A stretch of 64,000 nt of DNA from Minwuiaceae bacterium (GCA_028278525.1 JANQEE010000017.1:66274-130273); one strand, 5' to 3'. Shown: positions 14,687-38,743, counted from the stretch's first letter. Program-made: numbers and translations. The notes: a model not told the origin generated them from the sequence alone.

Positions 14687-15931
14687 CTAGAACCTTGGCA
14701 CATCGAACCGAACCGGCAGTGACAGAATAACGGCGTATTCGGGGCCGTCATCGGTCAAACCGACCACGCCGGCAAGATCGAGCAATACGCCACGGCCAAG
14801 CACCGACGATGCACCGATGGTAAAGGAACCAACAGTCCGATCCGAGCCGTCAACCTTGTCACCGTCGACTTCAGCCTCTTGCGAAAACTGCTGATCAAAG
14901 AAAAACCGCAAGGATGTGGATGGGCTGGCGGCCAGGACGGCACCAAGCGAGAAAGCAAGCTCGTCGCCCGGTTCGATATCGTCCTCTTCGAAGGTACTCT
15001 CGTACAAAAAGCTGGCAACGAATGCGAGAGGATCCTGTCTTTTGACCGCCGTCAACGACCCCCTGATCTCGTTGAAACCCGCGCCGAGCGCAACACCGTC
15101 GTCGAACCTTTCGCCGGTGTCGGAATCCCACGTAATTCTCCCGACAAGATCGGGCCACCACCGGTCTTCACGCAGTAAAGCCTTGGCCAGCCCGATGCGA
15201 AAATCGCCGAACCCCGAGCCGAATCCGCTTTCTTCGTCGCGTGCGCCGAAAACCACGCTTGTTACCGCCGATTGATCGACGAAATTGTACGGCAGGCCGA
15301 CCTCGAACTGGGCGTCCCAAGGCAAGCCGAGACGCAATTCCAGTTCGGCCTCGAATTCATTGCGGCGAACGTTCCGTTCCGCAAGAAACGTCGTAGCGCC
15401 CTCCGTGAAGAAAACCGGCGCATCGTTCTCTCTTCTCGTATAGCTGAAGCTGGGTTCTATTTGCGCTTTTCCGAACGGCAGCAAAAGAGCGCCCTCTTGC
15501 ACGAGCGTACGCTCCAACGCGCGGTCGATCGCGTCCTCGTCAATTTCGAACTCGCCGGGCGCCGGTTGTGGCGCTTGGTCGGTTACGGGCTCCGACGCCG
15601 CGGTCCGATAATTTGGAGATTGGATAATATCGGGGACGGCCGCACGCGAGGCGGGGGCGCCATTGAATGCCGCCGTTGCCAGGTCCGTTGCGTTGGGCGA
15701 GGCGCTTCCAGCCATCGCCCGCTCGAGCTGTTGCACGCGCTGTATGAGGTCCAAGATGACCGCGTCGCGGTCTTCGAGCAGCTCCTGCAGATGTTGGATG
15801 GTCGGCTCTTCGTCGGCTGCGTATGCAGCCGCCGGAACGAATACAGATGCCGACAACGCGCAAAGACAAGCCAGCATCCTGTTTACCGAGTAGACACTCG
15901 TCCGGGTCGGCAGTTTATTCATGTCCCCCAC
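14687..15931 (-). CDS. FapF-like outer-membrane beta-barrel secretion channel (signal peptide, periplasmic coiled coil, Ala/Pro linker, barrel with C-terminal Phe)
   Basis: The N-terminus (MNKLPTRTSVYSVNRMLACLCALSASVFVPAAAYAADE) is a signal peptide, followed by a heptad coiled coil (IQHLQELLEDRDAVILDLIQRVQQLERAMAG), then a low-complexity A/P/S linker. After that come alternating amphipathic beta-strands ending in ...VRFDVPRF. The probable true start is the ATG at 15922. Confidence 0.6.
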   Translation of the reverse strand: MGDMNKLPTRTSVYSVNRMLACLCALSASVFVPAAAYAADEEPTIQHLQELLEDRDAVILDLIQRVQQLERAMAGSASPNATDLATAAFNGAPASRAAVPDIIQSPNYRTAASEPVTDQAPQPAPGEFEIDEDAIDRALERTLVQEGALLLPFGKAQIEPSFSYTRRENDAPVFFTEGATTFLAERNVRRNEFEAELELRLGLPWDAQFEVGLPYNFVDQSAVTSVVFGARDEESGFGSGFGDFRIGLAKALLREDRWWPDLVGRITWDSDTGERFDDGVALGAGFNEIRGSLTAVKRQDPLAFVASFLYESTFEEDDIEPGDELAFSLGAVLAASPSTSLRFFFDQQFSQEAEVDGDKVDGSDRTVGSFTIGASSVLGRGVLLDLAGVVGLTDDGPEYAVILSLPVRFDVPRF

Positions 15932-15961
15932 CCCATCTTTTTCGAAAGGCCATGCCTTGGC

Positions 15962-16645
15962 TCAGCGAAGCATGACGAAGTCCTCGGGTCGGGGGGCGAG
16001 CCTGTTGGGAAGTACGGTACCGTCGCGTCGCGCGACCACGAACCCTACCCTTCCGACCTGCGGATACTTTATCCAGGAACTTTCGAACTTGCCCGCGAGC
16101 ATCGTGCGATTGCCGAACGCCGGGTCGGCCAAGAGGACCCGATTGCCGCGCATCCCCCGGAACACCACGAAATGGTTGTATCCGTCGAAATTGACGGGAA
16201 CCATTATCGGCGCACGCTGCTTCAGGTCGTCCAGAGTCAGGCTCCCGTAACCGATCCCTTCGTAGCCTCGGTCGTCGACATATTTCTTCAAGTCAAGCAG
16301 CGAGAAACCATGACGCAACCGAAGCAGACGGGGATTTGCGATGTATTCCTCGCGACTGATCAGCCCCGAGGCGACCTCTTTCTCGGATACAGGGTCGCCA
16401 TGCTGATAGTTGAGGATGGTAGCGAGAGCGGCCGCTCCGCAGCTTAGATCCCACTTCTGAACGACCACCCGGTCTTGGCGGATTTCGAGAAAGGAACGGA
16501 CGGGCTTCGACCCTTCGGCAAGTGCAGCAAAACACGGCGATATGCCGACCAGAATCGTAGCAATGAAAACACGTAACCGAACGTTGATGCGTCCGGTAGC
16601 TCGCCGGGCGTCGGCCCGGCGGCGGGTCTCATTTTGGCTCGACAT
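15962..16645 (-). CDS. Standalone peptidase C39-like cysteine peptidase (FapD-like), secreted
   Basis: The C39 catalytic block WDLSCGAAALATILNYQHG is present, with a signal peptide-like N-terminus (RVFIATILVGISPCFAALA). The start was trimmed to MSSQNE (ATG complement at 16643-16645). It ends 31 bp upstream of the outer-membrane protein gene. Confidence 0.7.
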   Translation of the reverse strand: MSSQNETRRRADARRATGRINVRLRVFIATILVGISPCFAALAEGSKPVRSFLEIRQDRVVVQKWDLSCGAAALATILNYQHGDPVSEKEVASGLISREEYIANPRLLRLRHGFSLLDLKKYVDDRGYEGIGYGSLTLDDLKQRAPIMVPVNFDGYNHFVVFRGMRGNRVLLADPAFGNRTMLAGKFESSWIKYPQVGRVGFVVARRDGTVLPNRLAPRPEDFVMLR

Positions 16646-16834
16646 GGGCCCATCCCCTGTTAGACCGAATCGAGTACTCCAGGTTGACCTTAGCCCAACA
16701 GCACATCCATTGAACGTAAAATCGACGCTTGGGACAACCGCTACTACGCTGCGCCACAATCGGAAATCGATGCGGCTTCAGCGGTAAACGGACCCGTTGA
16801 AGCCCGATCTGTCGAACTCTTTGCCTCTGTGGAG

Positions 16835-16947: not shown

Positions 16948-17658
16948 ATGACTACCACGATTGCGCTGATCGACGAGAGAACACTCACCCGCCAATGCTT
17001 GGCCCGTTGGCTGGAACGCAGCAGCAAGGATTTCAAGATCATCGCAGTTGGAAGACTGGCCGAGCTTGACCAGCGATATGAGCAAAATGAGGACCCTCAT
17101 CTGGTGCTGCTCAGCGTCGGCCACCTGACGGTGACGGACGATGAGGTGCGATCGTCGCTCAAGCAAGTGACCGACCGATTGCCTGACGTGCCTATTATTG
17201 TCCTTTCCGATTCTGAAGACCCTACCGCAGTAGCAGAAGCGATACGCAACGGCGTCAAAGGCTACATTCCAACAACACTCGATTTATCCGTTGCCCTGGA
17301 AGCGCTGCGGCTGGTCCAGGTGGGCGGCACATATGTACCGGCCAGCACTTTCCTTACGGCGCTGGAAAGTCGGGCGCCGGCTTGTCAGCACCAGGAGCCG
17401 CGGCCTGGCGAGCCGCACTCGCTGAAAGGGTTCACACCACGCGAGTTGCAGGTCCTGGAGCTACTTCGAGAGGGCAAGCCGAACAAGATCATCGCCTACG
17501 ACCTGAACATGCAGGAAAGCACCGTGAAAGTTCACGTTCGACACATCATGAAAAAGCTTAAAGCGAGCAATCGTACCCAGGCGGCGTTTCTGGCGCAGCA
17601 GCTGGTGGAAGCGGAACGAGAATACGGGTTGGTGGAGGAGTCCATTCTTACGCACTGA
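16948..17658 (+). CDS. LuxR/FixJ-family response regulator (receiver-like domain plus LuxR HTH)
   Basis: The C-terminal LTPRELQVLELLREGKPNKIIAYDLNMQESTVKVHVRHIMKKL is an HTH_LuxR domain. The N-terminal region is a receiver-like fold. No cognate kinase is adjacent. Confidence 0.8.
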   Translation: MTTTIALIDERTLTRQCLARWLERSSKDFKIIAVGRLAELDQRYEQNEDPHLVLLSVGHLTVTDDEVRSSLKQVTDRLPDVPIIVLSDSEDPTAVAEAIRNGVKGYIPTTLDLSVALEALRLVQVGGTYVPASTFLTALESRAPACQHQEPRPGEPHSLKGFTPRELQVLELLREGKPNKIIAYDLNMQESTVKVHVRHIMKKLKASNRTQAAFLAQQLVEAEREYGLVEESILTH

Positions 17659-17957: not shown

Positions 17958-18374
17958 ATGAAGAAGCTACTGCTTTTGTCTGTCGTCCTCGGTCTCTCCA
18001 CGTCAACAGCGTGGTCCCAAGAGATTTCAATCAAACCGTCCGAACCGCTTCGCCTGACCCTCAGTCAGATGGAATCGGTTACGGCCGGAGGCTCGCTCGC
18101 ATTGACACTTATCTCTGCGTTGGCATCCGGAGATTCGACGTTGATCAATGGGGTGGCGAGTAGTTTCGCAACAGACGATGTCGCGAACTCGAGCGGGACG
18201 GTTTTTGTCGGCTCGAGTGTGGAACCGGATTCCGACATCGCGGGCAATCAATCAGCGGGCCAGGCGTCAGCGGACGCGTTTGGCGACAACACACTGACGA
18301 TAACGGACGCCTTTGCCCAAACGACGAGTTTGTCTTCTGCGTTGATGCTGTTGTCGCTGGCCGGCGTGGACTGA
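17958..18374 (+). CDS. Small secreted S/T/A/G-rich protein, member 1 of a three-member paralog family (N-motif EPLRLTLSQMESVTAGG; C-motif ASADAFGDNTLTITDAFAQTTSLSS)
   Basis: It has a Sec signal peptide (MKKLLLLSVVLGLSTSTAWSQE). It shares both terminal motifs with the ORFs at 21822 and 23925. Confidence 0.7.
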   Translation: MKKLLLLSVVLGLSTSTAWSQEISIKPSEPLRLTLSQMESVTAGGSLALTLISALASGDSTLINGVASSFATDDVANSSGTVFVGSSVEPDSDIAGNQSAGQASADAFGDNTLTITDAFAQTTSLSSALMLLSLAGVD

Positions 18375-18413: not shown

Positions 18414-20699
18414 ATGGACGATCCGCCCGAAACGCCGTCAGCGCATACCAGAGACGCCGAAGGCGCAATGTCCCTGTATCGATCGGGTCGCCTGGCGGAC
18501 GCCGAGCAGGCGTACAGGCATCTACTCGACCAGGACGCGGACAACGCGGACAGTCTGCATATGTTGGGCGTAATAGCCTGGCGGCGCGGAGCGGCAGACG
18601 ACGCGAAGTCGCTGATCGAGCAGGCCTTGCGACAAGAGCCGCAAAATGCGCGCTATTACAATAGCCGCGGCATTGTCCTGGCGAACCAAGGGCAACTGGA
18701 GGATGCCCTAAGCTGCTTCGAACAGGCTATCGGTTTAGATTCCGATCTCGTCGAGGCGCACAACAACTACGGCAACGTTCTCAAGTCGCTCGGGCGACTG
18801 GAAGCGGCTTTGGTTGCCTACGATACAGCGATTGAGTCTCGCCCCGGCTATGCCGAGGCGCATTGCAACCGCGGCGGTGTTCTCGAAGCCCTAAGCCGGC
18901 CCGACGACGCGCTGGCGGCTTACGATGAAGCCGTTCGCATCGATCCCCGTTCCGCGAGCGCGCACAACGGTCGAGGCAACGTTCTGGTTGGTCGGGACAA
19001 TCTGAAAGCTGCCTTGGTTGCCTACGACACAACGATCGAGCTTCGTCCGGAAGGCGCGAAAGCCCACTACAATCGCGGCAATGTCCTGAAAGCACTGGGA
19101 CGCTTCGCCGAGGCATTGACCGCCTACGATCGTTCGCTCCGCATCGATGGCGAATTCATCGATGCACAAAACAACTACGGCACCGTTCTCGAATCTCTGG
19201 ATCGGCCCGACGAGGCGCTGGCCGCCTATGATCGGGCGATCCGCATCGATCCCAATTGCGCCAAGGCGCACAACAATCGAGGCAACATATTGAGGGATCA
19301 AGGACGGCTGAAGGACGCCCTGGCGGCATTCGAAACGTCGATTCAGTTGGATCCGGATTCGGCGATCGCCCACAACAATCTCGGCACCCTGCTGAAGGAC
19401 CAAGGCCGCCTCGACGCCGCCTTGGCCCACTTTGAGAAGGCCATCCGCATCGATCCGAATTCGTCGAAACCGCACAGCAACTATCTGATGTGCCTGACGT
19501 GCGATCCCGAACAGGATGACGACGCACTGTTTCAGGCCCACAAGAGATGGGGTGAACGGCATGGCCGTCCGCACGGCGCCTTCACTTGTTACGAGAATTC
19601 CAGGACCGTGAACAAGACGTTGCGCGTCGGTCTGGTCTCCGAGGAATTTGGGCGGACCCCGACCGGCTGGTTCCTGGAATCCGTCCTCTGCGAATTGAAC
19701 GATAAAACTGTCCAGGCCATTTGCTATTCGGACCGTCTGCTAGAGGACGCTTTGACCGACCGTCTGCGGTCCTGTGCTTTCGCTTGGCATTCGACCAGTA
19801 CGCTGACGGATGCAAAGCTCGCTGAATCAATCCGCGCCGATGGGATCGACATCCTGATCGATCTTTCCGGTCACGCCGGCGGCAATCGCCTGGGCTGTTT
19901 TGCCCTGAAACCCGCGCCTGTCCAGGTAAGCTGGATCGGTTACCATGAGACAACCGGACTTCCTGCCATGGATTACATACTGATGGATCCGGTGGTCGTT
20001 CCGATAGGCGCAGAGCGCTGGTTCACGGAGACGGTGGTTCGGTTGCCGCATAGCCGGTTCTGTTACACGCCGCCGGAATATTCGCCTGTCGTCGTTGACC
20101 CGCCGGCCATCGCCAATGGGCACATGACCTTCGGCAGCTTCAACAATCTGGCGAAAGTCAACCCGGAGGTCATTCGCGTTTGGGCGCGCATCCTGACGGA
20201 GGTTCCCGGTTCCAGGTTAATTCTGAAGTGGACGACACTGGACGATTCGGAAGAATGCAAACGGATGGAGAATGCATTCGCCGACTTTGGGATCGAGTCG
20301 GACAGGATCGACATGCGCGGACGGTCGCGCCACCACAGGCTGTTGGCCGAGTACGGCGACGTCGATATCGCTTTGGATCCGTTTCCCTATTGCGGCGGCC
20401 TGACAAGCTGCGAGGCGTTGTGGATGGGCGTTCCGATCGTCACGCTGCCGCACACGCGACCCGTATCGCGCATGACGACGGCCTTCCTGACAGCCATGCA
20501 GAAAACCGAATGGATCGCCGAAAGTACTGCCGACTACATTCGCATCGCGACCGAGCTCGCGAGCGATTTGGATGGCTTGACCGTCCAAAGGTGCGAACAA
20601 CGCGAGAGCATGAGAGTGTCCCCATTGTGCGACGGAGCGCGAGCGGCGCGCGATCTAGAGGCCGCCTTGCGCCTTATGTGGCGTAGATGGTGCGCGTAA
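18414..20699 (+). CDS. TPR-repeat protein with C-terminal O-GlcNAc transferase-like (GT41/SPINDLY-type) domain
   Basis: About ten 34-aa TPR units (AxxxYxxAIxxxP pattern) are followed by a roughly 350-aa glycosyltransferase 41-like C-terminus. The gene is 761 aa. Confidence 0.8.
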   Translation: MDDPPETPSAHTRDAEGAMSLYRSGRLADAEQAYRHLLDQDADNADSLHMLGVIAWRRGAADDAKSLIEQALRQEPQNARYYNSRGIVLANQGQLEDALSCFEQAIGLDSDLVEAHNNYGNVLKSLGRLEAALVAYDTAIESRPGYAEAHCNRGGVLEALSRPDDALAAYDEAVRIDPRSASAHNGRGNVLVGRDNLKAALVAYDTTIELRPEGAKAHYNRGNVLKALGRFAEALTAYDRSLRIDGEFIDAQNNYGTVLESLDRPDEALAAYDRAIRIDPNCAKAHNNRGNILRDQGRLKDALAAFETSIQLDPDSAIAHNNLGTLLKDQGRLDAALAHFEKAIRIDPNSSKPHSNYLMCLTCDPEQDDDALFQAHKRWGERHGRPHGAFTCYENSRTVNKTLRVGLVSEEFGRTPTGWFLESVLCELNDKTVQAICYSDRLLEDALTDRLRSCAFAWHSTSTLTDAKLAESIRADGIDILIDLSGHAGGNRLGCFALKPAPVQVSWIGYHETTGLPAMDYILMDPVVVPIGAERWFTETVVRLPHSRFCYTPPEYSPVVVDPPAIANGHMTFGSFNNLAKVNPEVIRVWARILTEVPGSRLILKWTTLDDSEECKRMENAFADFGIESDRIDMRGRSRHHRLLAEYGDVDIALDPFPYCGGLTSCEALWMGVPIVTLPHTRPVSRMTTAFLTAMQKTEWIAESTADYIRIATELASDLDGLTVQRCEQRESMRVSPLCDGARAARDLEAALRLMWRRWCA

Positions 20700-21125: not shown

Positions 21126-21152
21126 TTTGCAGACCTGATTTAAGGCGCACGA

Positions 21153-21449
21153 TCATCGAGACGTCGACGCATGGGCTTTGGCGCGCGCGCTTTGTCGCGA
21201 AACGGAAAGATATACGGACGCCTTGCCGCCGCGTGAACTCGCGGAAGCCCTTGCCGTCGCCCGGCCTTGCATGTCGGTCAATGTTTCAGACAGATAAAGG
21301 TCTCCGCCAATGACTGTTCGTTCGTGGACAATCGGGCGTCGGTCAGGGGCTGACCCCTCATCCGCAAATACCGGTTCCCCACCGGCCGTGGAGACGAAAC
21401 CGACCGCGGCACAAACCATGACGGCAACGCGGACAACCATTGCGCTCAT
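21153..21449 (-). CDS. Hypothetical small secreted protein
   Basis: A signal peptide (MSAMVVRVAVMVCAAVGFVSTAGGEP) is present. It shows weak resemblance to the EP...LTD.Q N-motif of the small-protein family. Confidence 0.3.
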   Translation of the reverse strand: MSAMVVRVAVMVCAAVGFVSTAGGEPVFADEGSAPDRRPIVHERTVIGGDLYLSETLTDMQGRATARASASSRGGKASVYLSVSRQSARAKAHASTSR

Positions 21450-21821
21450 GACCTTCGACGTTGAAATCCACCAATCCGATAACGTCGGCATAACCAACCA
21501 TGGCTGACGTCAAAGGATTAAAGTCTGGCGCCGGAACCTGGCCAAGCTGTCAATAGGTCGTAGCATTGCGGGCATGGGCCATCGTTGCTTCGGAAGACCG
21601 GGCAACGAAGCCCCCTTTTTGACGATTTGGCGTCGCCGTCTACAGCCATGGTTGTAGGCGCGGATCTGACCTCCCCAATTCGTCGCACCGATCACCGCCG
21701 AACGGCGGGCCAACCTTTTGGGTGGTTGTCCGGTGTCTCTACCAACACGCACACTCGATACACTGGCGCTGACGCCTCGCGCGGGCGCCGGTCGACAGAA
21801 CAATCGGAGGAGTGTTCGAAC

Positions 21822-22178
21822 ATGTCGAAGACAATGCTTTCCCTGCTTGCCGGTGTTTCGTTTGTGGCGTTGACGGGCGCCGCCGGCGCGGTGGAGCCGA
21901 TCAAGCTCACCGACAACCAGATGGACAAAGTCACGGCCGCCGGCTTTGTGGACTTCGATACCGACATCGATGTCAACGTCGACATCGACAAGGATGTCGA
22001 TATCAACGTGGATGCCGATGTGGACGCGGATGTCGATGTCGACGGCCATCTCGCCGTGGCAGAGGCCTCGGCCGACGCGTTTGGCAGCTTCGGCACCTTG
22101 TCGATTACCGATGCGTTTGCGCAGACGACGAGCAACTCTTCGGAGTCGTTCTCGTTCGCCTTGGCCGCGACGGACTAA
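21822..22178 (+). CDS. Small secreted acidic-repeat protein, member 2 of the paralog family (DVDIDKDVDINVDADVDADVDVD core)
   Basis: An RBS (ggagg) lies 11 nt upstream of the ATG. It has a Sec signal (MSKTMLSLLAGVSFVALTGAAGA), the N-motif EPIKLTDNQMDKVTAAG, and the C-motif ASADAFGSFGTLSITDAFAQTTSNSS. A terminator follows. Confidence 0.8.
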   Translation: MSKTMLSLLAGVSFVALTGAAGAVEPIKLTDNQMDKVTAAGFVDFDTDIDVNVDIDKDVDINVDADVDADVDVDGHLAVAEASADAFGSFGTLSITDAFAQTTSNSSESFSFALAATD

Positions 22179-22234
22179 GGCATCACCCGGCCTGATACGT
22201 GACCGAGGCCGGAAGTCCCTTAAACAAACTGAGC

Positions 22235-22265
22235 GCCCCGTGTCATCGCACGGGGCCATTTTTCT
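22235..22265 (+). terminator. Rho-independent terminator (gccccgtg-N6-cacggggc followed by a T-run)
   Basis: A GC-rich hairpin followed by TTTTTCT lies 57 nt after the stop of the 21822 gene. It is conserved in the paralog copy. Confidence 0.75.
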
Positions 22266-22347
22266 GCGACTCTTCGCTCGGACCCGTATTGCACGAAATC
22301 GGGCGGCAAGCTCTTCTGTCCTCCCAAACGTACGGGACGACCTCTGC

Positions 22348-23490
22348 CTAGCCGCTTTCCACCTGGCCATCACCGGCGTCGGGCACGCGCGAAGCCAGTG
22401 CACGGCGCCGGGCAGCGTTGGTCTTGTCGAAGAAGAAGCCGAAGATCCCGAAGCGTCTGCCCGATGTCACGGGCAGAGCCTCATGCAGCAGCTCAGCCGA
22501 GAAAACCACGGCGCCGCCGGCATCCGGCTTATAGAGCTGGCGCCCGAACTCCGGGAACCAGAGTTCGCCGCCTTCGTACTCGTGCGTGTTCAGATTAATC
22601 GTAAGCGCGAACTGCCGAAGTTTCGTGGCCGGCGTCGCTGTGGTATCGCGGTGGCGCAGAAACCTTCCTTGGACGGCGGAATCGTAACAACCGACGCGCA
22701 GCAACTGCCAGCTCTGCAGCTCGAAGTGAAACGCCTTCAGCAATTGCGGCGCGATGCGACGATTTATTCTCGCTCGCAGCTCGATGTTCAGGGCGCGGCT
22801 TGTTATGTGGACATCGGCCCGCCGCTTTTGGCCGTAGTCCGCACGGACGGCAGTTCCATGCGTTGTGGAGGTTACCTGATCGACCAACTTGTTGCCGGCT
22901 TGCCAATAGTCCATCAGCTTTCGGCAGAGATCCGGCTCAAGCACGTCATGAACGATCAGGGCCGGCGCCGCGGCCCGCACCTGCTGCGGCGCTGTCCGCT
23001 CAAAGATCCGGGTGCAATCTTCAAGCGCCGCCCCGAACGCGGCCCCCGGCCGGACGGAGACGATGCGCCCATCCGCATCCAGGACCACGACACCCGGACC
23101 GGTCAGGCCGACGGCACGCGCGACCCGCCGGTTTGGGTCGAGGAGCGTCCGCAATCCGATCGGCGATGGCACCGCCGCGGCCGACCCGTTGCGCGCGCGC
23201 ACGACCAGCCATGGATTGGCGCCGACCGCCTCGAAATCCGGCTGACGTTGGGCGAAAAGCCCTGCAACAACGGGATCCGGAGCGGCGTCCGCGATCCAGA
23301 GAACGAACGGCATGCCGATCCAGGATCCGTTCGCAATATGGACCTTGTTGCCTTGCGTGCTCTCGAGTTCGATAGCCTCCAGCGTATCGCCGCATGCAAC
23401 TTTGGCGGGCTTCGAAACCGGACCGATATCAAATCGATCGGCGGCCTTCGCCGGCTGTTTTTGCGTCGACTTATCGTCTGCCAAGGACAT
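22348..23490 (-). CDS. Thioredoxin-like (AhpC/TSA-type) N-domain fused to a 2OG-Fe(II) oxygenase (prolyl/aspartyl hydroxylase-like) C-domain
   Basis: The C-terminal part has HxD...H spacing (FLRHRDTT ... LLHEALPV) and RxS (SGRRFGIFGF) 2OG-binding features. The N-terminal 150 aa is redoxin-like. The gene is 380 aa. Confidence 0.65.
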   Translation of the reverse strand: MSLADDKSTQKQPAKAADRFDIGPVSKPAKVACGDTLEAIELESTQGNKVHIANGSWIGMPFVLWIADAAPDPVVAGLFAQRQPDFEAVGANPWLVVRARNGSAAAVPSPIGLRTLLDPNRRVARAVGLTGPGVVVLDADGRIVSVRPGAAFGAALEDCTRIFERTAPQQVRAAAPALIVHDVLEPDLCRKLMDYWQAGNKLVDQVTSTTHGTAVRADYGQKRRADVHITSRALNIELRARINRRIAPQLLKAFHFELQSWQLLRVGCYDSAVQGRFLRHRDTTATPATKLRQFALTINLNTHEYEGGELWFPEFGRQLYKPDAGGAVVFSAELLHEALPVTSGRRFGIFGFFFDKTNAARRRALASRVPDAGDGQVESG

Positions 23491-23924
23491 CCGGGCCTCG
23501 CGTCTTCTTCGCCTGTGCGATCGCCTCCGGCATCAGACTGCCCGGGGGTTTGTCGCCAAGACATGCGGGGGCACTAACCGTTAGTTTAAGTCCGGCCCCC
23601 CGCCCCCGGCCTACTTGACAATTTGAGGTACGTCTTTCGTTCGGCAGCATGGCCACCGGACGAACCCGACGAGTCACTTTGATATCTTCGTAGGACCGCC
23701 TATTGGCTGCACGCGGCCGAACCGGCGGCAGCAAATTGCGTCTACCACCGTGGCGGTAGACGCGGACCGGAACTCAGCATTTCGTCGCACCGGTCACCGT
23801 CGAACGGCGGGCCAACCTTTTGGGCGGTTGTCCGTCATCTGCACCCACACGCAAACTCAATCCACTGGTGCCGACGCTCGGCGCGGGCGCCGGTTGACAG
23901 ACCCAATTGGAGGAGTGCTCGAAC

Positions 23925-24278
23925 ATGTCGAAGACAATGATTTCCCTGCTGGCCGGCGTGTCGTTTGCCGCATTGACCGGAGCCGCCGGGGCGGCGGAGC
24001 CGGTCAAGCTGACCGACGGCCAGATGGACAGGATCACGGCCGCCGGCGGTGTGACGTTCGATACCGACATCAATGTCATGGTCGACATCGATAAGGACGT
24101 CGATATCGACGTGGACGCCGATGTGAACGCGGATGTCGACATCGAAGGCAATCTTGCGGTGGCCGAAGCCTCGGCCGATGCCTTTGGCAGCGATACCTTG
24201 TCGATTACCGACGCGTTCGCGCAGACGACGAGTTTCTCTTCGGAGTCGTTCTCGTTTGCTCTGGCCGCGACCGATTAA
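23925..24278 (+). CDS. Small secreted acidic-repeat protein, member 3 of the paralog family
   Basis: It is about 85% nucleotide-identical to the 21822 gene, including the RBS, the leader and the terminator. The N-motif is EPVKLTDGQMDRITAAG and the C-motif is ASADAFGSDTLSITDAFAQTTSFSS. Confidence 0.8.
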   Translation: MSKTMISLLAGVSFAALTGAAGAAEPVKLTDGQMDRITAAGGVTFDTDINVMVDIDKDVDIDVDADVNADVDIEGNLAVAEASADAFGSDTLSITDAFAQTTSFSSESFSFALAATD

Positions 24279-24333
24279 CGCATTACCCGGCCTCACACCT
24301 CGTCGAGGCCGGAAGCGCTTCAATTAAACTGAA

Positions 24334-24365
24334 AGCCCCATGTTTGCACATGGGGCTACTTTTTG
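24334..24365 (+). terminator. Rho-independent terminator (agccccatg-N5-catggggct followed by a T-run)
   Basis: This hairpin plus TTTTTG sits after the 23925 gene and is paralogous to the 22235 terminator. Confidence 0.75.
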
Positions 24366-24414
24366 CGCCGGTTCAGAAAAGCACGTAGAACGGGAAGAGA
24401 GTCCTCGATCGGAA

Positions 24415-25716
24415 TTAGCGGCCGACGTCGACCGCGCCGTCGGACGGCAATTTCGTGGGGTAATCTCCGAACACCTTGCCGGCGGGCTCGGCGGGCCGGT
24501 CAGCCAGTGTGGCTTCTCCGTAGGTTCGATAATAGTACGCCACGGTCTCGAGCAGCGTGTCATAGAGCGAAATCCGGGGCGTCCATCCCAATAGTTCCCT
24601 GGCCTTCGCCAGCACCGGCATCCGACGATCACAGTCTTCATAGCCCTCGCCATAGAAGTCCCGCGACGAAACCGACACGATCGGATGGGAGAGGTAGGAC
24701 GGGTCGCCGGTCACTTCGGCATAGACCAGCCGCATCAACTCCGCCAGCTCTGCCATCGTGACCTCATTCTCGCGGTTTCCGATATTGAAGATCTGGTTCG
24801 CCGCCCGATCCGGCTTTTGCAACATCAGCACGACCGCGGCAATGGCGTCGTGGATGGACACGATGGTGCGTCGCGCCGCACCGCCATCGACCAATTGCAG
24901 GGGCGACCGGTCCAACAGGGCTGTCATAAAGCAGGCGAGAACCCGCGGTATGCCCTCGCCGTCCCGGCCGGGAATGAAATCCATCTTCGGCCCAAAGAAG
25001 TTGAGCGGGCGAACGATCGTATATGGCAGGCCGCGTTCCCTGTGGTGCGCATAGATGAAGCGCTCCAACATCTGTTTCGCGCAGGCGTAGCTCCAGCGTT
25101 GGTTCTGGATGGGTCCCATGATCAACGGCGTTGCGGTTTCTTCCAGCTCGAATAGATCCGGATTCGAATAGTCGGGCGCCGGCAGATAGCTCGAAACCGT
25201 GCGCCCGTAGACCTCGCTGGTGGAGAAATGAATCAGCCACGTGCCGTGATGCGAACAGAGCTCGACCAGGCGATAGACGTCCAGGAAATTGGATTTGATC
25301 ACTTCCAGCGGGTTCGTGTTGTACTGCGACGGATTGCAAATGGCAGCCAGGTTGATGACCGCATCCGCCCACCTGACCGCTTCAATTAGTCCCGCGGGAA
25401 TCCGCGTATCGCTGAACGCTTCCCGATGGAACGTGAATTTCGGATTGGCCAGATGCGCGGCGATCTTCTCGTCATGCAGATCCCAGCCTTCGATCCGGAT
25501 CGCCCCTTGATCCAGAAGCCTGTCCAGAAGGTGGCTGCCGATAAAGCCACCGCATCCCAGGACAACCAAGTTCCGGACAGGTGGGAGGGAACGACGACCG
25601 TTGCCGACCCGCAAAGAGTGTTGCTCGACGCCATTTCGGCCATTGGCTGGAGGCCCATCTTGAGCCGACTTCCTTGTTCGTTTCCCGTCGCTTCGAAGCT
25701 CGGACTTGGCAGCCAT
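24415..25716 (-). CDS. NAD-dependent epimerase/dehydratase (UDP-glucuronate decarboxylase / ArnA C-domain-like)
   Basis: It has the LGCGGFIGSHL Rossmann motif and a YACAKQMLER (YxxxK) catalytic motif. The gene is 433 aa. Confidence 0.8.
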   Translation of the reverse strand: MAAKSELRSDGKRTRKSAQDGPPANGRNGVEQHSLRVGNGRRSLPPVRNLVVLGCGGFIGSHLLDRLLDQGAIRIEGWDLHDEKIAAHLANPKFTFHREAFSDTRIPAGLIEAVRWADAVINLAAICNPSQYNTNPLEVIKSNFLDVYRLVELCSHHGTWLIHFSTSEVYGRTVSSYLPAPDYSNPDLFELEETATPLIMGPIQNQRWSYACAKQMLERFIYAHHRERGLPYTIVRPLNFFGPKMDFIPGRDGEGIPRVLACFMTALLDRSPLQLVDGGAARRTIVSIHDAIAAVVLMLQKPDRAANQIFNIGNRENEVTMAELAELMRLVYAEVTGDPSYLSHPIVSVSSRDFYGEGYEDCDRRMPVLAKARELLGWTPRISLYDTLLETVAYYYRTYGEATLADRPAEPAGKVFGDYPTKLPSDGAVDVGR

Positions 25717-26272
25717 GGTCCCACTCCCGTCTTGTTTTCGTTACACACCGCGTCACGCAGGTCATTCGCCGTAACGGCCATCTCCTGCCGCTCACCCTCG
25801 CCTCTGGGTTGCGCATGCGCGCGGCCGGCCACGCGCCTGAACGGCCTCGAACAATTCAAGCCGCATGACAATCGCCCGGCTAGAAGCCAATCCGATGTAG
25901 GCGAGCGCTCGAAAGAGGTAGAGCAGCCCGGGTAAGCACCGGGCCGGACAATGCCGAACCGGCGCGCGTCGGCACGCCGCGCCCGCCGTTGTTCTTCGTT
26001 CGGTCGTTTTGCCGGTAAGAGAACCGAGAACGCCCGCGTGTCGGATGTACGAACGCGGCCCGGCCTCGATCACCGATCAATTTACCTACCTCCAAATCGG
26101 TAGGAAGGAGCAAATTGATGAACGTTTGGACAGCGCTTAATGCCAAAGGCGAATTGTCACCCCGCGAGAACGCAAGCAAAATTCCAAGAAGTCTTTTTGT
26201 CTTGGTGGTTTATGACGTTGCTTGTACGTACGGCATTCGTGCGGCCGAGCGCATATCGGGGAGGGTGGACCT

Positions 26273-27565
26273 ATGTTTATTCGGGGCACGCGAGGCGACG
26301 ACATTCTGATCGGCACGGCTGCGGATGACTTCATCTTGGGTAACGGTGGCAACGACATTATCGATGCCACCCTGGGCGGCAACAACACGATCATTACCCG
26401 CAGCGGCGACGACCAAATTTTGGCTGGATTGGGCAACGACGTCATCAACGACCGTGGCGGCGACAACACCATCATGGATCTCGGCGGCAACAACTTCATA
26501 CGAACCCGCGATGGCGACGATGATATCACCACCGGCGACGGCGATGACGAAATCTATGCGGGCGACGGGACCAACATCATCGACGCCGGCGACGGCAACA
26601 ATACCGTCATCGGCGGCGATGGTTTCGACGATATCAGGGTCGGTTTCGGGAGCGATTTCGTCAAACTTGGAAGTGGCAACGAGCCCATCGACGTAAGCGG
26701 CACCGGCGCGACGGTCGATTTCTCGATTGGCGGCGCCATCTCGATCAACGGCGAGCCGCTGTTCGACTTTAGCGGCATCGGTGCCGATGATCCCAATCAG
26801 CTTATCGATCTGGCCAACTTCGGCCTGGCATCACTTGGTTTTGGCGTCGTGAGCGCGAGTAATCTGAGCATCGACTTCGGCGGGAGCGACACCATCCTCG
26901 GTTCGGGCCGCGACGACGTCATTTTGAACGACTTCTTTTTTCTCGGCGGCTCCGGCCCGGCAGCCAGCGACGACGAGATCCATGCCGGCGAAGGCGAAAA
27001 CATCGTCATCGATGTCGGCGGCAACAACCTGATCACCTCCGGCGAGGGCGACGACATCATTTTTACGTCGCTGGTGGCGGCGGTCGCCGGTGACGACGAA
27101 GTCATCAGCGGCGGCGGTGACGACAACGTTCAGACCGGCGCCGGCAGCGACAATGTCCAGACCGAAGAGGGCAACGACATATTGGTGGGCGGCACGGGTC
27201 CGGACATACTGGCAGGCGGAACAGAGCAAGATCGCATCTTTCCCGGGACAATGAACGCCTTCGATGGGCAGACCGACATCATCGATTACAACTCGCTGGC
27301 CGAAACCACGCCGGACCCAAGTCAGGTCGATCTGGTATTCGGTTTCGAGCCGGGCGCCGGCGGCGACCAGATCGACTTCAGTGATTTAACCGGGCCGGCG
27401 TTCGACATCGGTTCCGACCTCAAATTCCTGGTCGGCAATGTCGGCGTTACGCCGAGCACTTTCGTGCTGCTCGACCCCGATGGCGGCGCCGACGGCTTCG
27501 TCTTCACAGCGGCTTTGGTCGGCACAAATCCGGCGTTGCTCACCCCGGACAATTTTATCGTCTGA
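26273..27565 (+). CDS. RTX-type calcium-binding repeat protein (putative T1SS substrate)
   Basis: It contains many GGxGxDxU nonapeptide repeats (GGNDIIDATLGGNNTIITRSGDDQILAGLGNDVIND...). It lies directly upstream of the T1SS ABC/MFP genes. An RBS (gggagggtgga) precedes ATG 26273. Confidence 0.8.
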   Translation: MFIRGTRGDDILIGTAADDFILGNGGNDIIDATLGGNNTIITRSGDDQILAGLGNDVINDRGGDNTIMDLGGNNFIRTRDGDDDITTGDGDDEIYAGDGTNIIDAGDGNNTVIGGDGFDDIRVGFGSDFVKLGSGNEPIDVSGTGATVDFSIGGAISINGEPLFDFSGIGADDPNQLIDLANFGLASLGFGVVSASNLSIDFGGSDTILGSGRDDVILNDFFFLGGSGPAASDDEIHAGEGENIVIDVGGNNLITSGEGDDIIFTSLVAAVAGDDEVISGGGDDNVQTGAGSDNVQTEEGNDILVGGTGPDILAGGTEQDRIFPGTMNAFDGQTDIIDYNSLAETTPDPSQVDLVFGFEPGAGGDQIDFSDLTGPAFDIGSDLKFLVGNVGVTPSTFVLLDPDGGADGFVFTAALVGTNPALLTPDNFIV

Positions 27566-27673: not shown

Positions 27674-29416
27674 TTGACGTCAATGATGCTCGATCGAAAC
27701 GAAAACGGTGACCCGGCCGCAACGGCGGTACGAGCATCTCGCGGCGCCTTTGTCGCGGTTGCCCTGTTCAGTCTGTTTCACAATCTGCTGCTGCTGACCG
27801 TCCCCCTCTACATGCTGCAGATCTACGACCGGGTGCTCACGTCCGGCAGTCAGGCAACGTTGGCGATGCTGACCGTCGTCGCGCTTGGCATGTTGTTGGC
27901 GAGCGCCTTGCTCGAGCTCGTGCGTAATCGAATCCTGACACGTCTGGCAATGCGCCTCGACGATCGCCTGAACGCCGACGTGCTCACGGCGACCCATCGA
28001 CTTCGGCTCGACAAAGTTCAGCAAAACGGACAACCGCTGATCCGCGATCTCGAGATCGTGCGCGCCTTTCTTGCGGGCAACGGCCTCATCGCCCTTCTGG
28101 ATATGCCGTGGACGCCCGTGTTCATCGTGGTGATTTTCCTGTTTCACCCCCTTCTCGGGTCGGTCGCGCTCGGCGGCGTCATTCTGTTGTTCGGGCTTGG
28201 CGTTCTGAATGAGCTGGTGACAAGGAAGCCGCTTAGGGAAGCGCTTCGCGAACACGCGACGGGTCAGTCCTTCGCGGAGACGAGCCTGCAGAACGGCGAT
28301 GTCGTCGAAGCCATGGCAATGCTGCCCGGCCTACACCGGCGCTGGCGCGAGCATCATGAGCGGTCCCTTCTTTTGCAGACGAAATTGAGCGATCGCGCGG
28401 GAACGATTGCCGCCTTCGCCAAGTTTGCCCGCCAAGGCTTGCAGATAGCGATGCTTGGGCTTGGCGCCTATCTCGCGCTGCAGCAGGTAATTACGGCGGG
28501 CGTCATGATCGCCGCATCGATCATCCTCGCCCGTGCGTTGGCGCCAGTCGAATTGTCGATCATGGGTTGGCGGGGTTTCGTGCAGGCACGGGAGTCTTTC
28601 GCGCGGCTGCGGCGGGCCGTCACCTCGGCCGGGCCGGACACCGATCCAATGCGCCTTCCAGACCCGACGGGTCGCATCGCTATCGAGAATCTGTTCGCTG
28701 CGCCTCCGGGGGTCGCGAAACCGGTCCTCCGAAATGTCACCTGCGACCTCGAGCCCGGCCAGATACTCGGTGTGATCGGTCCGAGCGCCGCCGGCAAATC
28801 CACATTGGCACGAGTGCTGGTCGGTGTATGGCAGCCGAAGTCTGGCCATGTGCGCCTGGACGGTGCCGATTTCGCGACCTGGGATCGCCGCCAGCTTGGG
28901 CCGTGTATCGGCTATCTGCCTCAGGACGTCGAGCTGTTCGATGGCTCGATCAAAGAAAACATCGCGCGATTTGAGCTGCCGGTCACGGAGCGGGTCGTCG
29001 CCGCGGCACGGCGTGCGGGCGTCCATGACATGATCCTCGGCCTACCCGACGGCTACAATACGAGGATTGGCGATGGCGGAAGCGTGCTCTCAGGCGGACA
29101 GCGACAGCGTATCGCGCTGGCCCGGGCGCTTTACGGCGACCCGGTGCTGATCGTGCTCGACGAACCGAATGCCAGCCTAGACACCGACGGCGACCACTCC
29201 CTTCGAGTTGCACTGGAAACCCTGAAGGCCGAGCAAAAAACGGTTGTGATCATCTCCCATCGTCTCAATGTGCTGGCGGTGGCCGATCAGCTAATGCTGC
29301 TGCGCGACGGCGCGGTGGAACGATCCGGCCCCCGCGCCGAAGTTCTAACGGCCCTGACGCGGGTGGCGGCCAGCCAGTCGGTCAGCACCAGCCGCGACGC
29401 GGCTGTGGCGACATGA
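27674..29416 (+). CDS. Type I secretion system ABC transporter permease/ATPase (PrtD/HasD-type, no N-terminal C39 domain)
   Basis: A 6-TM domain is followed by an ABC ATPase with Walker A (GPSAAGKST), the signature LSGGQRQRIALARAL, and Walker B (IVLDEP). Confidence 0.9.
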   Translation: MTSMMLDRNENGDPAATAVRASRGAFVAVALFSLFHNLLLLTVPLYMLQIYDRVLTSGSQATLAMLTVVALGMLLASALLELVRNRILTRLAMRLDDRLNADVLTATHRLRLDKVQQNGQPLIRDLEIVRAFLAGNGLIALLDMPWTPVFIVVIFLFHPLLGSVALGGVILLFGLGVLNELVTRKPLREALREHATGQSFAETSLQNGDVVEAMAMLPGLHRRWREHHERSLLLQTKLSDRAGTIAAFAKFARQGLQIAMLGLGAYLALQQVITAGVMIAASIILARALAPVELSIMGWRGFVQARESFARLRRAVTSAGPDTDPMRLPDPTGRIAIENLFAAPPGVAKPVLRNVTCDLEPGQILGVIGPSAAGKSTLARVLVGVWQPKSGHVRLDGADFATWDRRQLGPCIGYLPQDVELFDGSIKENIARFELPVTERVVAAARRAGVHDMILGLPDGYNTRIGDGGSVLSGGQRQRIALARALYGDPVLIVLDEPNASLDTDGDHSLRVALETLKAEQKTVVIISHRLNVLAVADQLMLLRDGAVERSGPRAEVLTALTRVAASQSVSTSRDAAVAT

Positions 29417-37023: not shown

Positions 37024-37038
37024 CCACAATGCCAAGGC

Positions 37039-38719: not shown

Positions 38720-38743
38720 CGCGGCGACGCTCGCTCTCCGCAT

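What the first reader, a model, noticed from the sequence alone, without database searches (positions are those of the whole stretch)
21630..24370. About 640-bp direct duplication (leader hairpin, gene, two 3' hairpins) bracketing an oxygenase gene
The two acidic-repeat genes lie on about 85%-identical direct repeats. These extend roughly 190 bp upstream, including a conserved palindrome (gcgtctacc..ggtagacgc) and a ggccaacc-ttttgggt-ggttg stem, and about 90 bp downstream, including a conserved stem-loop and terminator. Conservation of the non-coding flanks implies a duplicated regulatory cassette, possibly a shared cis-regulatory RNA or operator. It is also a substrate for recombination that could invert or delete the intervening oxygenase gene.
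Basis: seen in the sequence. Interest (0 to 1): 0.6.

Follow-up and report, generated by a model that had tools for sequence, protein, structure and literature searches.

The report
Duplicated small secreted-protein gene unit
A whole small gene for a secreted acidic-repeat protein, with its upstream control region and its terminator, has been copied once in this alphaproteobacterial-type secretion gene cluster; this is an ordinary paralog pair, not a new RNA element or a recombination switch.

Summary
Two direct repeats of about 634 bp (A 21637-22270, B 23738-24369) are 80-86% identical and end sharply. Each holds about 185 nt of non-coding leader, a 118/117-aa gene, a 3' stem-loop and an intrinsic terminator. 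A distant 2OG-Fe(II) dioxygenase-like gene lies between them on the other strand.

The genes belong to an uncharacterised family, with a Sec signal followed by a double-glycine-like motif. They sit in a conserved cluster: FapF-like outer-membrane protein, C39 peptidase, REC+GerE regulator, RTX protein and a type I secretion ABC/MFP pair. A third, older paralog lies at 17958. In relatives the small genes are adjacent in one operon. Here each is a separate transcription unit, split by lineage-specific enzyme genes.

The two leader palindromes fit CWACC-N8-GGTWG, which recurs outside the repeat upstream of the RTX gene. That favours a shared operator over an RNA switch.

Evidence for a structured leader RNA is weak: no Rfam match, fold z about -1, and no significant result in an unbiased structure-preservation test. 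A few compensatory changes exist.

Flank divergence (16-20%) is not significantly below four-fold-site divergence (24%), so recency explains much of the conservation. Direct repeats cannot invert, and two strains keep the same arrangement.

The parts
21637..22270 (+). Repeat unit A: leader, small-protein gene A, 3' stem-loop and terminator
23738..24369 (+). Repeat unit B: the same layout, about 2102 bp downstream
21637..21660 (.). Palindrome 1 of unit A (CGTCTACA-GCCATGGT-TGTAGGCG). Imperfect, with core CTACA-N8-TGTAG.
23738..23763 (.). Palindrome 1 of unit B (GCGTCTACC-ACCGTGGC-GGTAGACGC). Matches CWACC-N8-GGTWG exactly. In the sister strain the arms are kept through a T-A to C-G double change and the spacer is changed.
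21708..21731 (.). Palindrome 2 of unit A (GGCCAACC-TTTTGGGT-GGTTGTCC), inside the best-conserved leader block. Its right arm overlaps a TTGTCC -35-like hexamer (read by eye).
23810..23833 (.). Palindrome 2 of unit B (GGCCAACC-TTTTGGGC-GGTTGTCC)
21762..21792 (+). GC-rich hairpin in leader A (ACUGGCGCUG..CGGGCGCCGGU), 30-60 nt upstream of the start codon. The matching hairpin in B is at 23864-23894. The copies differ only by C/U changes opposite G.
21747..21815 (+). Candidate helix in leader A that pairs ACGC..CUCGAU with AUCGGAG..GUGU and covers the Shine-Dalgarno GGAGGAG (21806-21812). The matching region in B is 23849-23918. It carries two double-sided changes, but it was predicted from these same sequences.
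21822..22178 (+). Gene A, 118 aa: Sec-type signal peptide, EPIKLTDNQMDKVTAAG motif, V-D alternating acidic repeats and a conserved C-terminal domain
23925..24278 (+). Gene B, 117 aa, 84% identical to A. dN/dS is 0.2.
22187..22212 (+). 3' stem-loop of unit A (CCGGCCT...AGGCCGG). The stem is conserved and the loop has diverged. The matching stem-loop in B is at 24287-24312.
22235..22256 (.). Intrinsic terminator hairpin of unit A. It is preceded by an A-rich tract and followed by a T-run, so it probably also terminates the convergent oxygenase gene.
24334..24357 (.). Intrinsic terminator hairpin of unit B, flagged on both strands. It faces the convergent epimerase gene. One G-C to A-U compensatory change separates it from the A hairpin.
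22348..23490 (-). Intervening 380-aa gene, a distant 2OG-Fe(II) dioxygenase-like protein. It is not part of the repeat and is absent from the relatives' clusters.
26086..26103 (.). CTACC-TCCAAATC-GGTAG, the same palindrome type outside the repeat, about 175 nt upstream of the RTX gene start. In the sister strain the arms are conserved and the spacer is changed.
17958..18374 (+). Third, older paralog (138 aa, 43% identical to A). A looser site (ATACC-N8-GGTTT) lies at 17787-17804 upstream.
16948..17658 (+). REC + GerE (NarL/FixJ-type) response regulator, conserved in all related clusters. It is the candidate binder of the palindromes.
14687..16759 (-). FapF-like outer-membrane protein (14687-15931) and stand-alone C39 peptidase (15962-16759)

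Best explanation
The repeat is a lineage-specific duplication of one complete monocistronic transcription unit. The unit encodes a small exported acidic-repeat protein that belongs to a FapD/FapF-like plus type I secretion cluster.

Each copy carries the following parts:
- Two 8-9-bp-arm palindromes of the form CWACC-N8-GGTWG. These most likely act as DNA operators for a cluster regulator, probably the adjacent REC+GerE response regulator. They would tie both copies to the RTX/T1SS operon and to the third paralog.
- A promoter somewhere inside the 185-nt leader, not located here.
- A 5' UTR with a GC-rich hairpin, possibly closed by a helix that covers the ribosome-binding site.
- The gene itself.
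- A 3' stem-loop and a bidirectional intrinsic terminator that also serves the convergent neighbouring gene.

Shown: the anatomy, the paralogy, the cluster context and the recurrence of the motif.

Inferred: operator function, the identity of the regulator, and the idea that two copies serve dosage or a two-subunit partnership, as paired subunit genes do in relatives.

Much of the flank similarity simply reflects how recent the duplication or gene conversion is.
For: - Sharp repeat boundaries that enclose leader, CDS and terminator.
- The CDS is under purifying selection (dN/dS 0.2, differences by codon position 13/9/31). The leader shows no codon periodicity (9/12/13).
- Terminator hairpins with T-runs in both copies. 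The B hairpin is flagged on both strands, and one compensatory pair separates the copies.
- CWACC-N8-GGTWG has 4 exact hits in 64 kb against 0.07 expected. All lie in 5' regions of plus-strand genes of this cluster, and one is outside the repeat, upstream of the RTX gene.
- The looser WACC-N8-GGTW has 7 hits against 1.19 expected. Five are in cluster leaders, including upstream of the third paralog.
- In the sister strain the arms are conserved while the spacers changed, in unit B and at the RTX site.
- The cluster encodes a REC+GerE regulator that is conserved at 41-45% identity in every related cluster.
- Relatives carry the small genes as adjacent pairs or triplets in one operon, between the RTX-like gene and the ABC/MFP genes.
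- The oxygenase and the epimerase are absent from the relatives' clusters. The split into separate units is therefore specific to this lineage.
Against: - The motif was defined from the repeat itself, so only the RTX site (and weakly the 17788 site) is independent evidence.
- Palindrome 1 of copy A departs from the motif at both inner positions.
- No sigma-70-like promoter was found by the scan, so the transcription start is unknown.
- The changes in palindrome 1 (A-T to C-G, and the series T-A / T-G / C-G) are what an RNA hairpin would also show.
- No motif hits occur in the relatives' loci.
- Binding by the regulator is untested.
Confidence: 0.6

Rival explanations
1. The leader is a structured cis-regulatory RNA, that is, a long 5' UTR. 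Its hairpins (palindrome 1, CCGCCGAACGGCGG, the GC-rich hairpin) and an anti-Shine-Dalgarno helix would control mRNA stability or translation, like an RNA thermometer or a protein- or sRNA-responsive leader. This could coexist with operator function.
For: - RNAalifold predicts a helix pairing CUC(G/A)AU with AU(C/U)GGAG over the ribosome-binding site. It carries a G-C to A-U double change. A second pair goes A-U, A.C, G-C across the copies and strains.
- All single-sided changes inside the local hairpins are C/U opposite G, which is tolerated only in plus-strand RNA.
- On the chosen structure, 3 pairs change on both sides, the covariation score is 0.176 against 0.117 in shuffles (4 of 500 reach it), and all slid controls give zero.
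Against: - The structure was derived from the same four sequences, which amount to two lineages, so that test is circular.
- When each copy's own MFE structure is scored for preservation by the other copy, preservation is no better than for randomly placed substitutions (P=0.19-0.40).
- Fold z-scores are -0.9 and -1.06.
- There is no Rfam family at gathering score and nothing relevant at E<=5.
- The leader is absent from homolog loci and metagenomes.
- The arm sequence recurs at a non-homologous site with a different loop. That points to sequence recognition rather than to shape.
Confidence: 0.25
2. The flank similarity has no functional meaning beyond carrying a promoter and a terminator somewhere. 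It simply reflects a fairly recent duplication, or gene conversion, of a 634-bp segment, with the flanks drifting almost neutrally since.
For: - Flank divergence of 16.3% (5') and 20.5% (3') against 24% at 58 four-fold degenerate sites is not significant (p=0.18 and 0.27 pooled).
- Both copies are closer to each other than to any of the 22 database relatives, all of which are <=59% identical.
- Tandem arrays of the gene are common in relatives.
Against: - The flanks are significantly less diverged than all synonymous sites by Nei-Gojobori (p about 0.001).
- There are very few indels, only 3 gap columns in 185 nt.
- Conservation is uneven. A block of about 53 nt around palindrome 2 has 3 mismatches.
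- Stems are kept while loops diverge in the 3' stem-loop and the terminator.
- The palindrome type recurs outside the repeat.
Confidence: 0.3
3. The repeats act as a recombination device that deletes or inverts the oxygenase gene, giving phase-variation-like switching.
For: Two direct repeats of about 634 bp flank the gene.
Against: - Recombination between direct repeats deletes or amplifies and cannot invert (established knowledge).
- Identity is only about 84%, and the longest perfect run is 24 bp. That is near the minimal length for RecA-dependent exchange (established knowledge).
- The contigs of the sister strain and the window strain all keep A-oxygenase-B.
- The copies have diverged by 15%, so they have coexisted for a long time without deletion.
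Confidence: 0.03

Closest known systems
Paralogous subunit gene pairs of secreted fibre systems (FapB/FapC of the Pseudomonas fap operon; CsgB/CsgA of curli)
   Same: - Two related small Sec-exported proteins are encoded side by side in a cluster.
- The cluster has a stand-alone C39 peptidase (as FapD) and an outer-membrane protein whose only significant PDB matches are FapF. That protein has an N-terminal coiled-coil-like segment.
- A GerE-type regulator is encoded in the cluster, comparable in type to CsgD.
   Different: - The small proteins have no detectable similarity to FapB/C or curli repeats.
- They are acidic V-D repeat proteins rather than Q/N-rich ones.
- No FapA or FapE was recognised.
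- The cluster also carries an RTX protein and a T1SS.
- The Fap system was reported only in Beta-, Gamma- and Deltaproteobacteria (PMC3792158).
- Here the two genes are separate transcription units, not one operon.
- Fibre or amyloid formation is untested, and the AlphaFold model has low confidence (pLDDT 52).
Double-glycine (GG) leader peptides cleaved by C39 peptidases (class II bacteriocins, PCAT transporters)
   Same: - The conserved motif L-x4-(M/L)-(D/E)-x-V-T-A-(A/G)-G has hydrophobic residues at about -12, -7 and -4.
- A family member (P0037) carries a classical cytoplasmic GG leader (..IFGAGG).
- Leaderless long members start exactly at the residue after the motif.
- The C39 protein's best PDB match is a double-glycine motif protease domain.
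   Different: - Here the motif follows a Sec signal peptide.
- The C39 protein is stand-alone with its own N-terminal hydrophobic segment, so cleavage would be periplasmic, as proposed for FapD (PMC5557850).
- The site would be A-A/G or A-G/G rather than G-G.
- Cleavage is not shown.
Inverted-repeat operators of NarL/FixJ/LuxR-family (GerE HTH) regulators, for example NarL 7-2-7 sites and lux boxes
   Same: - Palindromes of 18-26 bp lie upstream of several co-located operons.
- TACC-N8-GGTA has the same geometry as a 7-2-7 pair of TACYYMT heptamers (recalled from the literature, not tested).
- A REC+GerE regulator is encoded in the cluster.
   Different: - The sequence is not a NarL or lux box.
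- Binding is untested.
- Positions relative to the transcription start are unknown.
Bidirectional intrinsic terminators between convergent genes
   Same: A GC-rich hairpin is flanked by an A-tract upstream and a T-tract downstream, between convergent genes (A and the oxygenase; B and the epimerase). The B hairpin was flagged on both strands.
   Different: None apparent. This is an ordinary feature.
SD-sequestering 5' UTR elements (RNA thermometers such as ROSE or fourU)
   Same: A predicted helix covers GGAGGAG, with one compensatory pair.
   Different: - No Rfam match.
- No ROSE or fourU sequence signature.
- Statistical support is lacking.

Membership tests
Any curated RNA family (Rfam 15) | Covariance-model score at or above the family gathering threshold | tested here: not met
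   There were 0 matches in the whole window at gathering score. At E<=5 in 21400-24500 only chance-level hits appeared (MIR4359, ClpQY_promoter, suhB; 17-21 bits against thresholds of 41-75).
Structured cis-regulatory leader RNA (generic) | Structure more stable than shuffled sequence | tested here: not met
   z = -0.90 for A and -1.06 for B. 33 and 29 of 200 shuffles fold at least as well.
Structured cis-regulatory leader RNA (generic) | Covariation supporting the helices in independent homologs | tested here: inconclusive
   Only 4 sequences exist (two copies in each of two strains). The leader is absent from distant homolog loci and JGI metagenomes. Three double-sided changes occur on a structure derived from the same data. 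The unbiased preservation test is not significant.
Intrinsic (Rho-independent) terminator | GC-rich hairpin followed directly by a T-run at the 3' end of the gene | tested here: met
   22235-22256 has 9 pairs followed by CATTTTTCTG. 24334-24357 has 10 pairs followed by ACTTTTTGCG. One G-C to A-U compensatory pair separates the copies.
Transcription-factor operator shared by a regulon | The same palindromic motif recurs upstream of several co-located, non-homologous transcription units more often than chance | tested here: met
   CWACC-N8-GGTWG has 4 exact hits against 0.07 expected, one of them (26086) outside the repeat. WACC-N8-GGTW has 7 hits against 1.19 expected, 5 of them in cluster leaders. 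Caveat: the motif was defined post hoc.
Transcription-factor operator shared by a regulon | Binding by a specific regulator and an effect on transcription | not testable with these tools
   Needs EMSA, ChIP or reporter assays.
Fap functional-amyloid system (fapABCDEF) | FapF-type outer-membrane channel | tested here: inconclusive
   The only PDB matches below E=0.01 are FapF chains (5o67, 5o65, 5o68; E 0.0015-0.0032; residues 212-408 against 137-333). The protein is 45% identical to relatives annotated PF13557 Phenol_MetA_deg. It has no Pfam hit of its own. An N-terminal coiled-coil-like segment was read by eye.
Fap functional-amyloid system (fapABCDEF) | Stand-alone C39 peptidase (FapD) | tested here: met
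   PF03412 at 1.3e-13 in a 265-aa ORF with an N-terminal hydrophobic segment. It is about 70% identical to the orthologs in relatives' clusters.
Fap functional-amyloid system (fapABCDEF) | FapB/FapC repeat-containing subunits | tested here: not met
   The small proteins have no Pfam or NCBIfam family match, apart from a sub-threshold DUF6160 hit at E=0.006. Their repeat chemistry is different (V-D alternation).
Fap functional-amyloid system (fapABCDEF) | Amyloid fibre formation by the subunits | not testable with these tools
   The AlphaFold2 model is low confidence (pLDDT 52). The repeat region is modelled as coil, with a C-terminal three-strand meander.
Double-glycine leader / C39 substrate | Leader with conserved hydrophobic spacing ending in GG, GA or GS, with the mature domain starting right after it | tested here: inconclusive
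   The motif is conserved across the family. P0037 has a classical GG leader, and the leaderless long forms begin at profile position 40, directly after the motif. The site here is AA|G or AG|G and follows a Sec signal. Cleavage was not tested.
2OG-Fe(II) oxygenase (the intervening gene) | Significant match to a 2OG-Fe(II) oxygenase model that includes the HxD...H...R core | tested here: inconclusive
   NCBIfam PRK05467 scores 8.4e-10 (38.5 bits, below the 143-bit cut-off). PDB 3dkq scores 1.8e-4. There is no Pfam hit. An HRD...H...R pattern is visible by eye in residues about 290-360.
Recombination (deletion or inversion) switch | Repeats in the orientation and with the identity needed, and alternative arrangements in the population | tested here: not met
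   The repeats are direct, so inversion is impossible. The longest identical run is 24 bp. All recovered contigs keep the same arrangement.

The most novel reading that the evidence does not exclude
The two repeat units would be subunit genes of an undescribed Fap-like export pathway in Alphaproteobacteria. In this reading, small acidic V-D repeat proteins cross the inner membrane by Sec. They still carry a double-glycine-type propeptide, which a periplasmic stand-alone C39 peptidase removes. They then leave through a FapF-like channel to form a calcium-binding matrix or fibre. All of this would be co-regulated with an RTX/T1SS module through CWACC-N8-GGTWG operators bound by the cluster's REC+GerE regulator. 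If so, this would also give the long-sought substrate-recognition logic for FapD-type periplasmic C39 peptidases.
Probability: 0.3. Interest if true: 0.6.

Novelty: new member of a known kind. Interest (0 to 1): 0.3.

Why it matters
As posed, the finding is an ordinary paralog duplication that took its promoter region and terminator with it. It is not a new RNA class and not a genome-rearrangement switch, and establishing that closes the question.

Its value lies in what the context shows. The duplicated gene belongs to an uncharacterised protein family of about 460 clusters at 50% identity. The family is tied to a conserved FapD/FapF-like plus T1SS cluster.

The family's members carry three interchangeable export formats:
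- a Sec signal followed by a GG-like motif;
- a classical double-glycine leader;
- a leaderless form with T1SS-like C-termini.

The repeated palindrome gives a concrete, testable regulon signature for the cluster.

Tried and rejected
- Rfam at gathering threshold and at E<=5: nothing relevant.
- Sigma-70 promoter scan of 21300-24700: no hit. By-eye candidates (TTGTCC-N18-CA[A/C]ACT; sigma-54 and EcfG-like patterns) were weak or not conserved, so none is claimed.
- Search for the leader in relatives: blastn of leaders and tails against 24 loci gave only chance hits, apart from the same-species contigs L011 and L012.
- The single metagenome scan with GGCCAACCTTTTGGGNGGTTG returned two unrelated contigs of 52% GC, matching over 23 nt only.
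- The genome-contig scan found 12 loci in Pelagibius, Rhodospirillales and Rhodovibrionaceae MAGs, Limibaculum and a few cyanobacteria. The window's own species was not among them and none had a similar leader.
- Local alignment of the leaders against the upstream regions of the RTX gene, the third paralog and the regulator: no similarity beyond the short palindrome.
- Leader as a coding N-terminal extension: rejected. There is no codon periodicity, and a 1-nt indel breaks the frame in copy B.
- AlphaFold2 of protein A with the 23-sequence alignment: pLDDT 52, too poor for a fold search.
- Mobile-element or MITE reading: no terminal inverted repeats or target duplications at the unit ends, which coincide with a palindrome and a terminator.
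- REP-like repeat reading: the motif occurs only in this cluster within the 64 kb.
- Literature search for a described system with this architecture: none found beyond the Fap papers.


Full report
**Observation**

The region holds two direct copies of a segment of about 634 bp: A at 21637-22270 and B at 23738-24369, spaced about 2102 bp apart.

Identity by segment:
- 5' non-coding flank: 185/186 nt, 83.7%, with only 3 gap columns.
- Coding region (A 21822-22178, 118 aa; B 23925-24278, 117 aa): 85.6% nt and 84% aa.
- 3' flank: about 90 nt, 79.5%.

In 30-nt windows, identity drops from 70-90% to 20-45% immediately outside these limits. These are the palindrome at the 5' edge, the GGCCAACC-TTTTGGGY-GGTTG element (2 hits against 0.01 expected), a 3' stem-loop, and a hairpin with a T-run.

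**Are the flanks conserved more than neutrality predicts?**

The coding region is under purifying selection. dN is 0.094, dS is 0.47 and dN/dS is 0.2. Differences by codon position are 13/9/31. The leader has no codon periodicity (9/12/13) and is therefore non-coding.

The comparison with neutral sites depends on the measure used:
- Against the Nei-Gojobori synonymous proportion (35%), the flanks (16.3% and 20.5% mismatches) are significantly less diverged (p about 0.001).
- That synonymous estimate is inflated by GAT/GAC switching in the Asp repeats, where 7 of 15 shared Asp codons switched.
- At 58 four-fold degenerate sites the divergence is 24%. This is not significantly above the flanks (p=0.18 for the 5' flank, 0.27 pooled).

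So much of the flank similarity can be explained by the age of the duplication or by gene conversion. Some features argue for constraint on parts of the flanks but do not prove it. Indels are scarce. A block of about 53 nt around the second palindrome has only 3 mismatches. The 3' hairpins show conserved stems with diverged loops.

**What the genes are**

The two proteins have a Sec-type signal peptide with an AxA site. Next comes a conserved motif, EP-x-x-L-(T/S)-x-x-x-(M/L)-D-x-(V/I)-T-A-A-G. Then follows a run of alternating hydrophobic and acidic residues (VDFDTDIDVNVDIDKDVD...), and finally a conserved C-terminal domain (..AEASADAFG..TDAFAQTT..FSFALAATD).

They match no Pfam or NCBIfam family. 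A word-indexed search found 22 relatives, all <=59% identical. An exhaustive profile search found 463 clusters at E<=1e-3 and 125 at E<=1e-10.

The window contains a third, older paralog at 17958-18374 (138 aa, 43% identical) with the same N- and C-terminal motifs.

Family members come in three N-terminal formats:
- the format seen here, a Sec signal followed by the motif;
- a classical cytoplasmic double-glycine leader (P0037: ..IFGAGG then TNFNTN..);
- leaderless proteins of 300-400 aa that begin M-G-x-V-x-F-x-T, exactly at the residue after the motif, and end in T1SS-like C-termini.

This suggests that the motif is a double-glycine-type propeptide. That is an inference.

**Cluster context**

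In the window the cluster reads, in order:
- a 414-aa outer-membrane protein (14687-15931, minus strand);
- a stand-alone C39 peptidase (15962-16759, minus strand; PF03412 at 1.3e-13);
- a REC+GerE response regulator (16948-17658);
- paralog 3 (17958-18374);
- a TPR-GT41 protein (18414-20699);
- unit A;
- a distant 2OG-Fe(II) dioxygenase-like gene (22348-23490, minus strand);
- unit B;
- an NAD-dependent epimerase (24415-25716, minus strand);
- an RTX repeat protein (about 26273-27565);
- an ABC transporter (27674-29416);
- a HlyD/AprE-type MFP (29413-30765).

The outer-membrane protein's only PDB matches below E=0.01 are FapF chains (E about 0.0015). It is 45% identical to relatives annotated Phenol_MetA_deg. 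That is the family of FapF's closest structural neighbour (PMC5557850). The C39 protein's best PDB match is a double-glycine motif protease domain.

The core set is conserved in relatives from Pelagibius, Rhodovibrionaceae and Rhodospirillales MAGs and from TARA metagenomes. The core set is the outer-membrane protein, C39 (about 70% identical), the regulator, the RTX-like protein, the small genes, the ABC transporter and the MFP. There the small genes are adjacent pairs 75-92 nt apart, placed between the RTX-like gene and the ABC gene. In one contig they form a triplet 55 nt apart.

The oxygenase, the epimerase, orf113 and the GMC oxidoreductase are absent from those clusters. In this lineage the subunit genes have therefore become separate monocistronic units, interleaved with lineage-specific enzyme genes on the other strand. 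The two copies are closer to each other than to any relative. That indicates an independent duplication or concerted evolution.

**The palindromes**

Both leader palindromes of unit B, and palindrome 2 of unit A, fit CWACC-N8-GGTWG. Across the whole 64-kb window this pattern has exactly four hits against 0.07 expected. Three are in the repeat. The fourth is at 26086-26103, about 175 nt upstream of the RTX gene, outside the repeat and in sequence that is otherwise unrelated.

The looser WACC-N8-GGTW gives 7 hits against 1.19 expected. Five are in cluster leaders, including one 162 nt upstream of paralog 3.

In a sister strain about 97% identical (L011/L028), the arms of the unit B site and the RTX site are conserved while their spacers each changed. 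Recurrence of the arm sequence with unrelated spacers at non-homologous promoters is what a protein-recognised operator predicts. The cluster-encoded, conserved REC+GerE regulator is the obvious candidate (inference). The TACC-N8-GGTA geometry equals a NarL-type 7-2-7 site, but that is recalled from the literature and was not tested.

Caveats:
- The motif was defined from the repeat, so independent support rests on one strong site and one weak site.
- Copy A's palindrome 1 deviates at both inner positions.
- The relatives' loci have no such sites.

**RNA-level evidence**

- No Rfam family matches.
- Leader folds are not unusually stable (z = -0.9 and -1.06).
- The local hairpins are preserved with pairing-compatible changes. 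Palindrome 1 has one A-U to C-G double change and a U-A / U.G / C-G series. The CCGCCG..CGGCGG hairpin and the GC-rich hairpin show only C/U changes opposite G.
- RNAalifold adds a helix pairing CUC(G/A)AU with AU(C/U)GGAG over the Shine-Dalgarno sequence. It has a G-C to A-U double change. A neighbouring pair goes A-U, A.C, G-C across copies and strains.
- On this structure the covariation score exceeds all but 4 of 500 shuffles, and the slid controls are zero. However, the structure was chosen from the same four sequences.
- In a non-circular test, I folded each copy alone. I then asked whether the other copy's substitutions break fewer pairs than randomly placed ones. The result is not significant (P=0.19-0.40).
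- The leader could not be found in any other genome or metagenome.

A structured leader RNA remains possible, particularly the GC-rich hairpin and the anti-SD helix near the start codon. It is not established.

**3' flank**

The stem-loop after the stop codon keeps its 7-8 bp stem while the loop has diverged. One strain carries a mismatch in that stem.

The terminator hairpins keep pairing through a G-C to A-U double change. They are preceded by an A-rich tract (..AAACTGA..) and followed by a T-run. The B hairpin is flagged as terminator-like on both strands. Both units face a convergent gene (the oxygenase after A, the epimerase after B). The conserved A-tract is therefore best read as the U-tract of a bidirectional terminator.

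**Recombination claim**

The repeats are direct, so they could mediate deletion or amplification but not inversion. The longest perfect match is 24 bp and overall identity is about 84%. All recovered contigs keep the A-oxygenase-B order. These are the window strain (L027, identical to the window) and the sister strain (L011/L028 and L012). There is no sign of a switch.

**Conclusion**

The finding is a duplicated, complete transcription unit for a small exported protein. The unit consists of a probable operator and promoter, a 5' UTR, the gene, a 3' stem-loop and a bidirectional terminator. The duplication itself and its anatomy are ordinary.

The most interesting by-products concern the context:
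- an uncharacterised protein family;
- its apparent Sec-plus-double-glycine leader;
- the FapD/FapF-like plus T1SS cluster;
- a candidate regulon palindrome.

None of these is proven here.

Noticed in passing
window 17958-18374 (+), with an upstream site at 17787-17804: A third, more diverged paralog of the two small genes (138 aa). It keeps the EPxxLTxxQMxxVTAGG and ASADAFG..TDAFAQTTS motifs but has a non-acidic central region. It appears to be co-transcribed with a TPR-GT41 glycosyltransferase-like gene.
   Followed up: partly
window 26086-26103: CTACC-N8-GGTAG palindrome about 175 nt upstream of the RTX repeat-protein gene. It is the same type as the leader palindromes and sits at a similar distance from the start codon (about 174 nt in units A and B).
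   Followed up: partly
window 21126-21636 compared with L011/L028: Between two strains that are otherwise 97-98% identical, this segment just upstream of unit A differs at 65 of 511 positions. Unit A itself is almost invariant (3 of 634), while unit B differs at 17 of 631. This suggests a recombination mosaic or a recent sweep at unit A. The 114-aa ORF at 21153-21497 is not called in the sister strain.
   Followed up: no
proteins P0031, P0042, P0043, P0037: The same core domain occurs with three export formats. They are a Sec signal plus a GG-like motif, a classical double-glycine leader, and leaderless 300-400-aa proteins starting MG.V.F.T with T1SS-like C-terminal ends. Exchange of export route within one family looks like a lead worth following.
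   Followed up: partly
window 14687-16759 (-): The outer-membrane protein has an N-terminal coiled-coil-like segment followed by a linker and a barrel, and its only significant PDB matches are FapF. The adjacent stand-alone C39 peptidase is the best-conserved protein of the cluster (about 70% identity to relatives, against 36-47% for the others).
   Followed up: partly
loci L018, L022, L024 (cyanobacterial MAGs and Leptothoe): Homologs of the small-protein domain also occur in cyanobacteria. There, as in this window, a TPR-GT41-like gene lies nearby. The alphaproteobacterial marine relatives lack it.
   Followed up: no
JGI contig of P0002: Three tandem copies of the small gene (117, 117 and at least 64 aa) lie about 55 nt apart. 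Tandem amplification of this gene therefore recurs across lineages. The DNA could not be fetched.
   Followed up: no
window 22348-23490 (-): The 'oxygenase' has an N-terminal half of about 170 aa with no detectable family. Only its C-terminal half resembles PKHD/PiuC-type 2OG-Fe(II) hydroxylases. It has no signal peptide. Whether it hydroxylates the Asp/Asn-rich neighbours is an open guess.
   Followed up: no
window 8001-10000, 37001-39000, 45001-47000: AT skew is strongly negative in these 1-kb windows (-0.2 to -0.36), far from the rest of the window.
   Followed up: no
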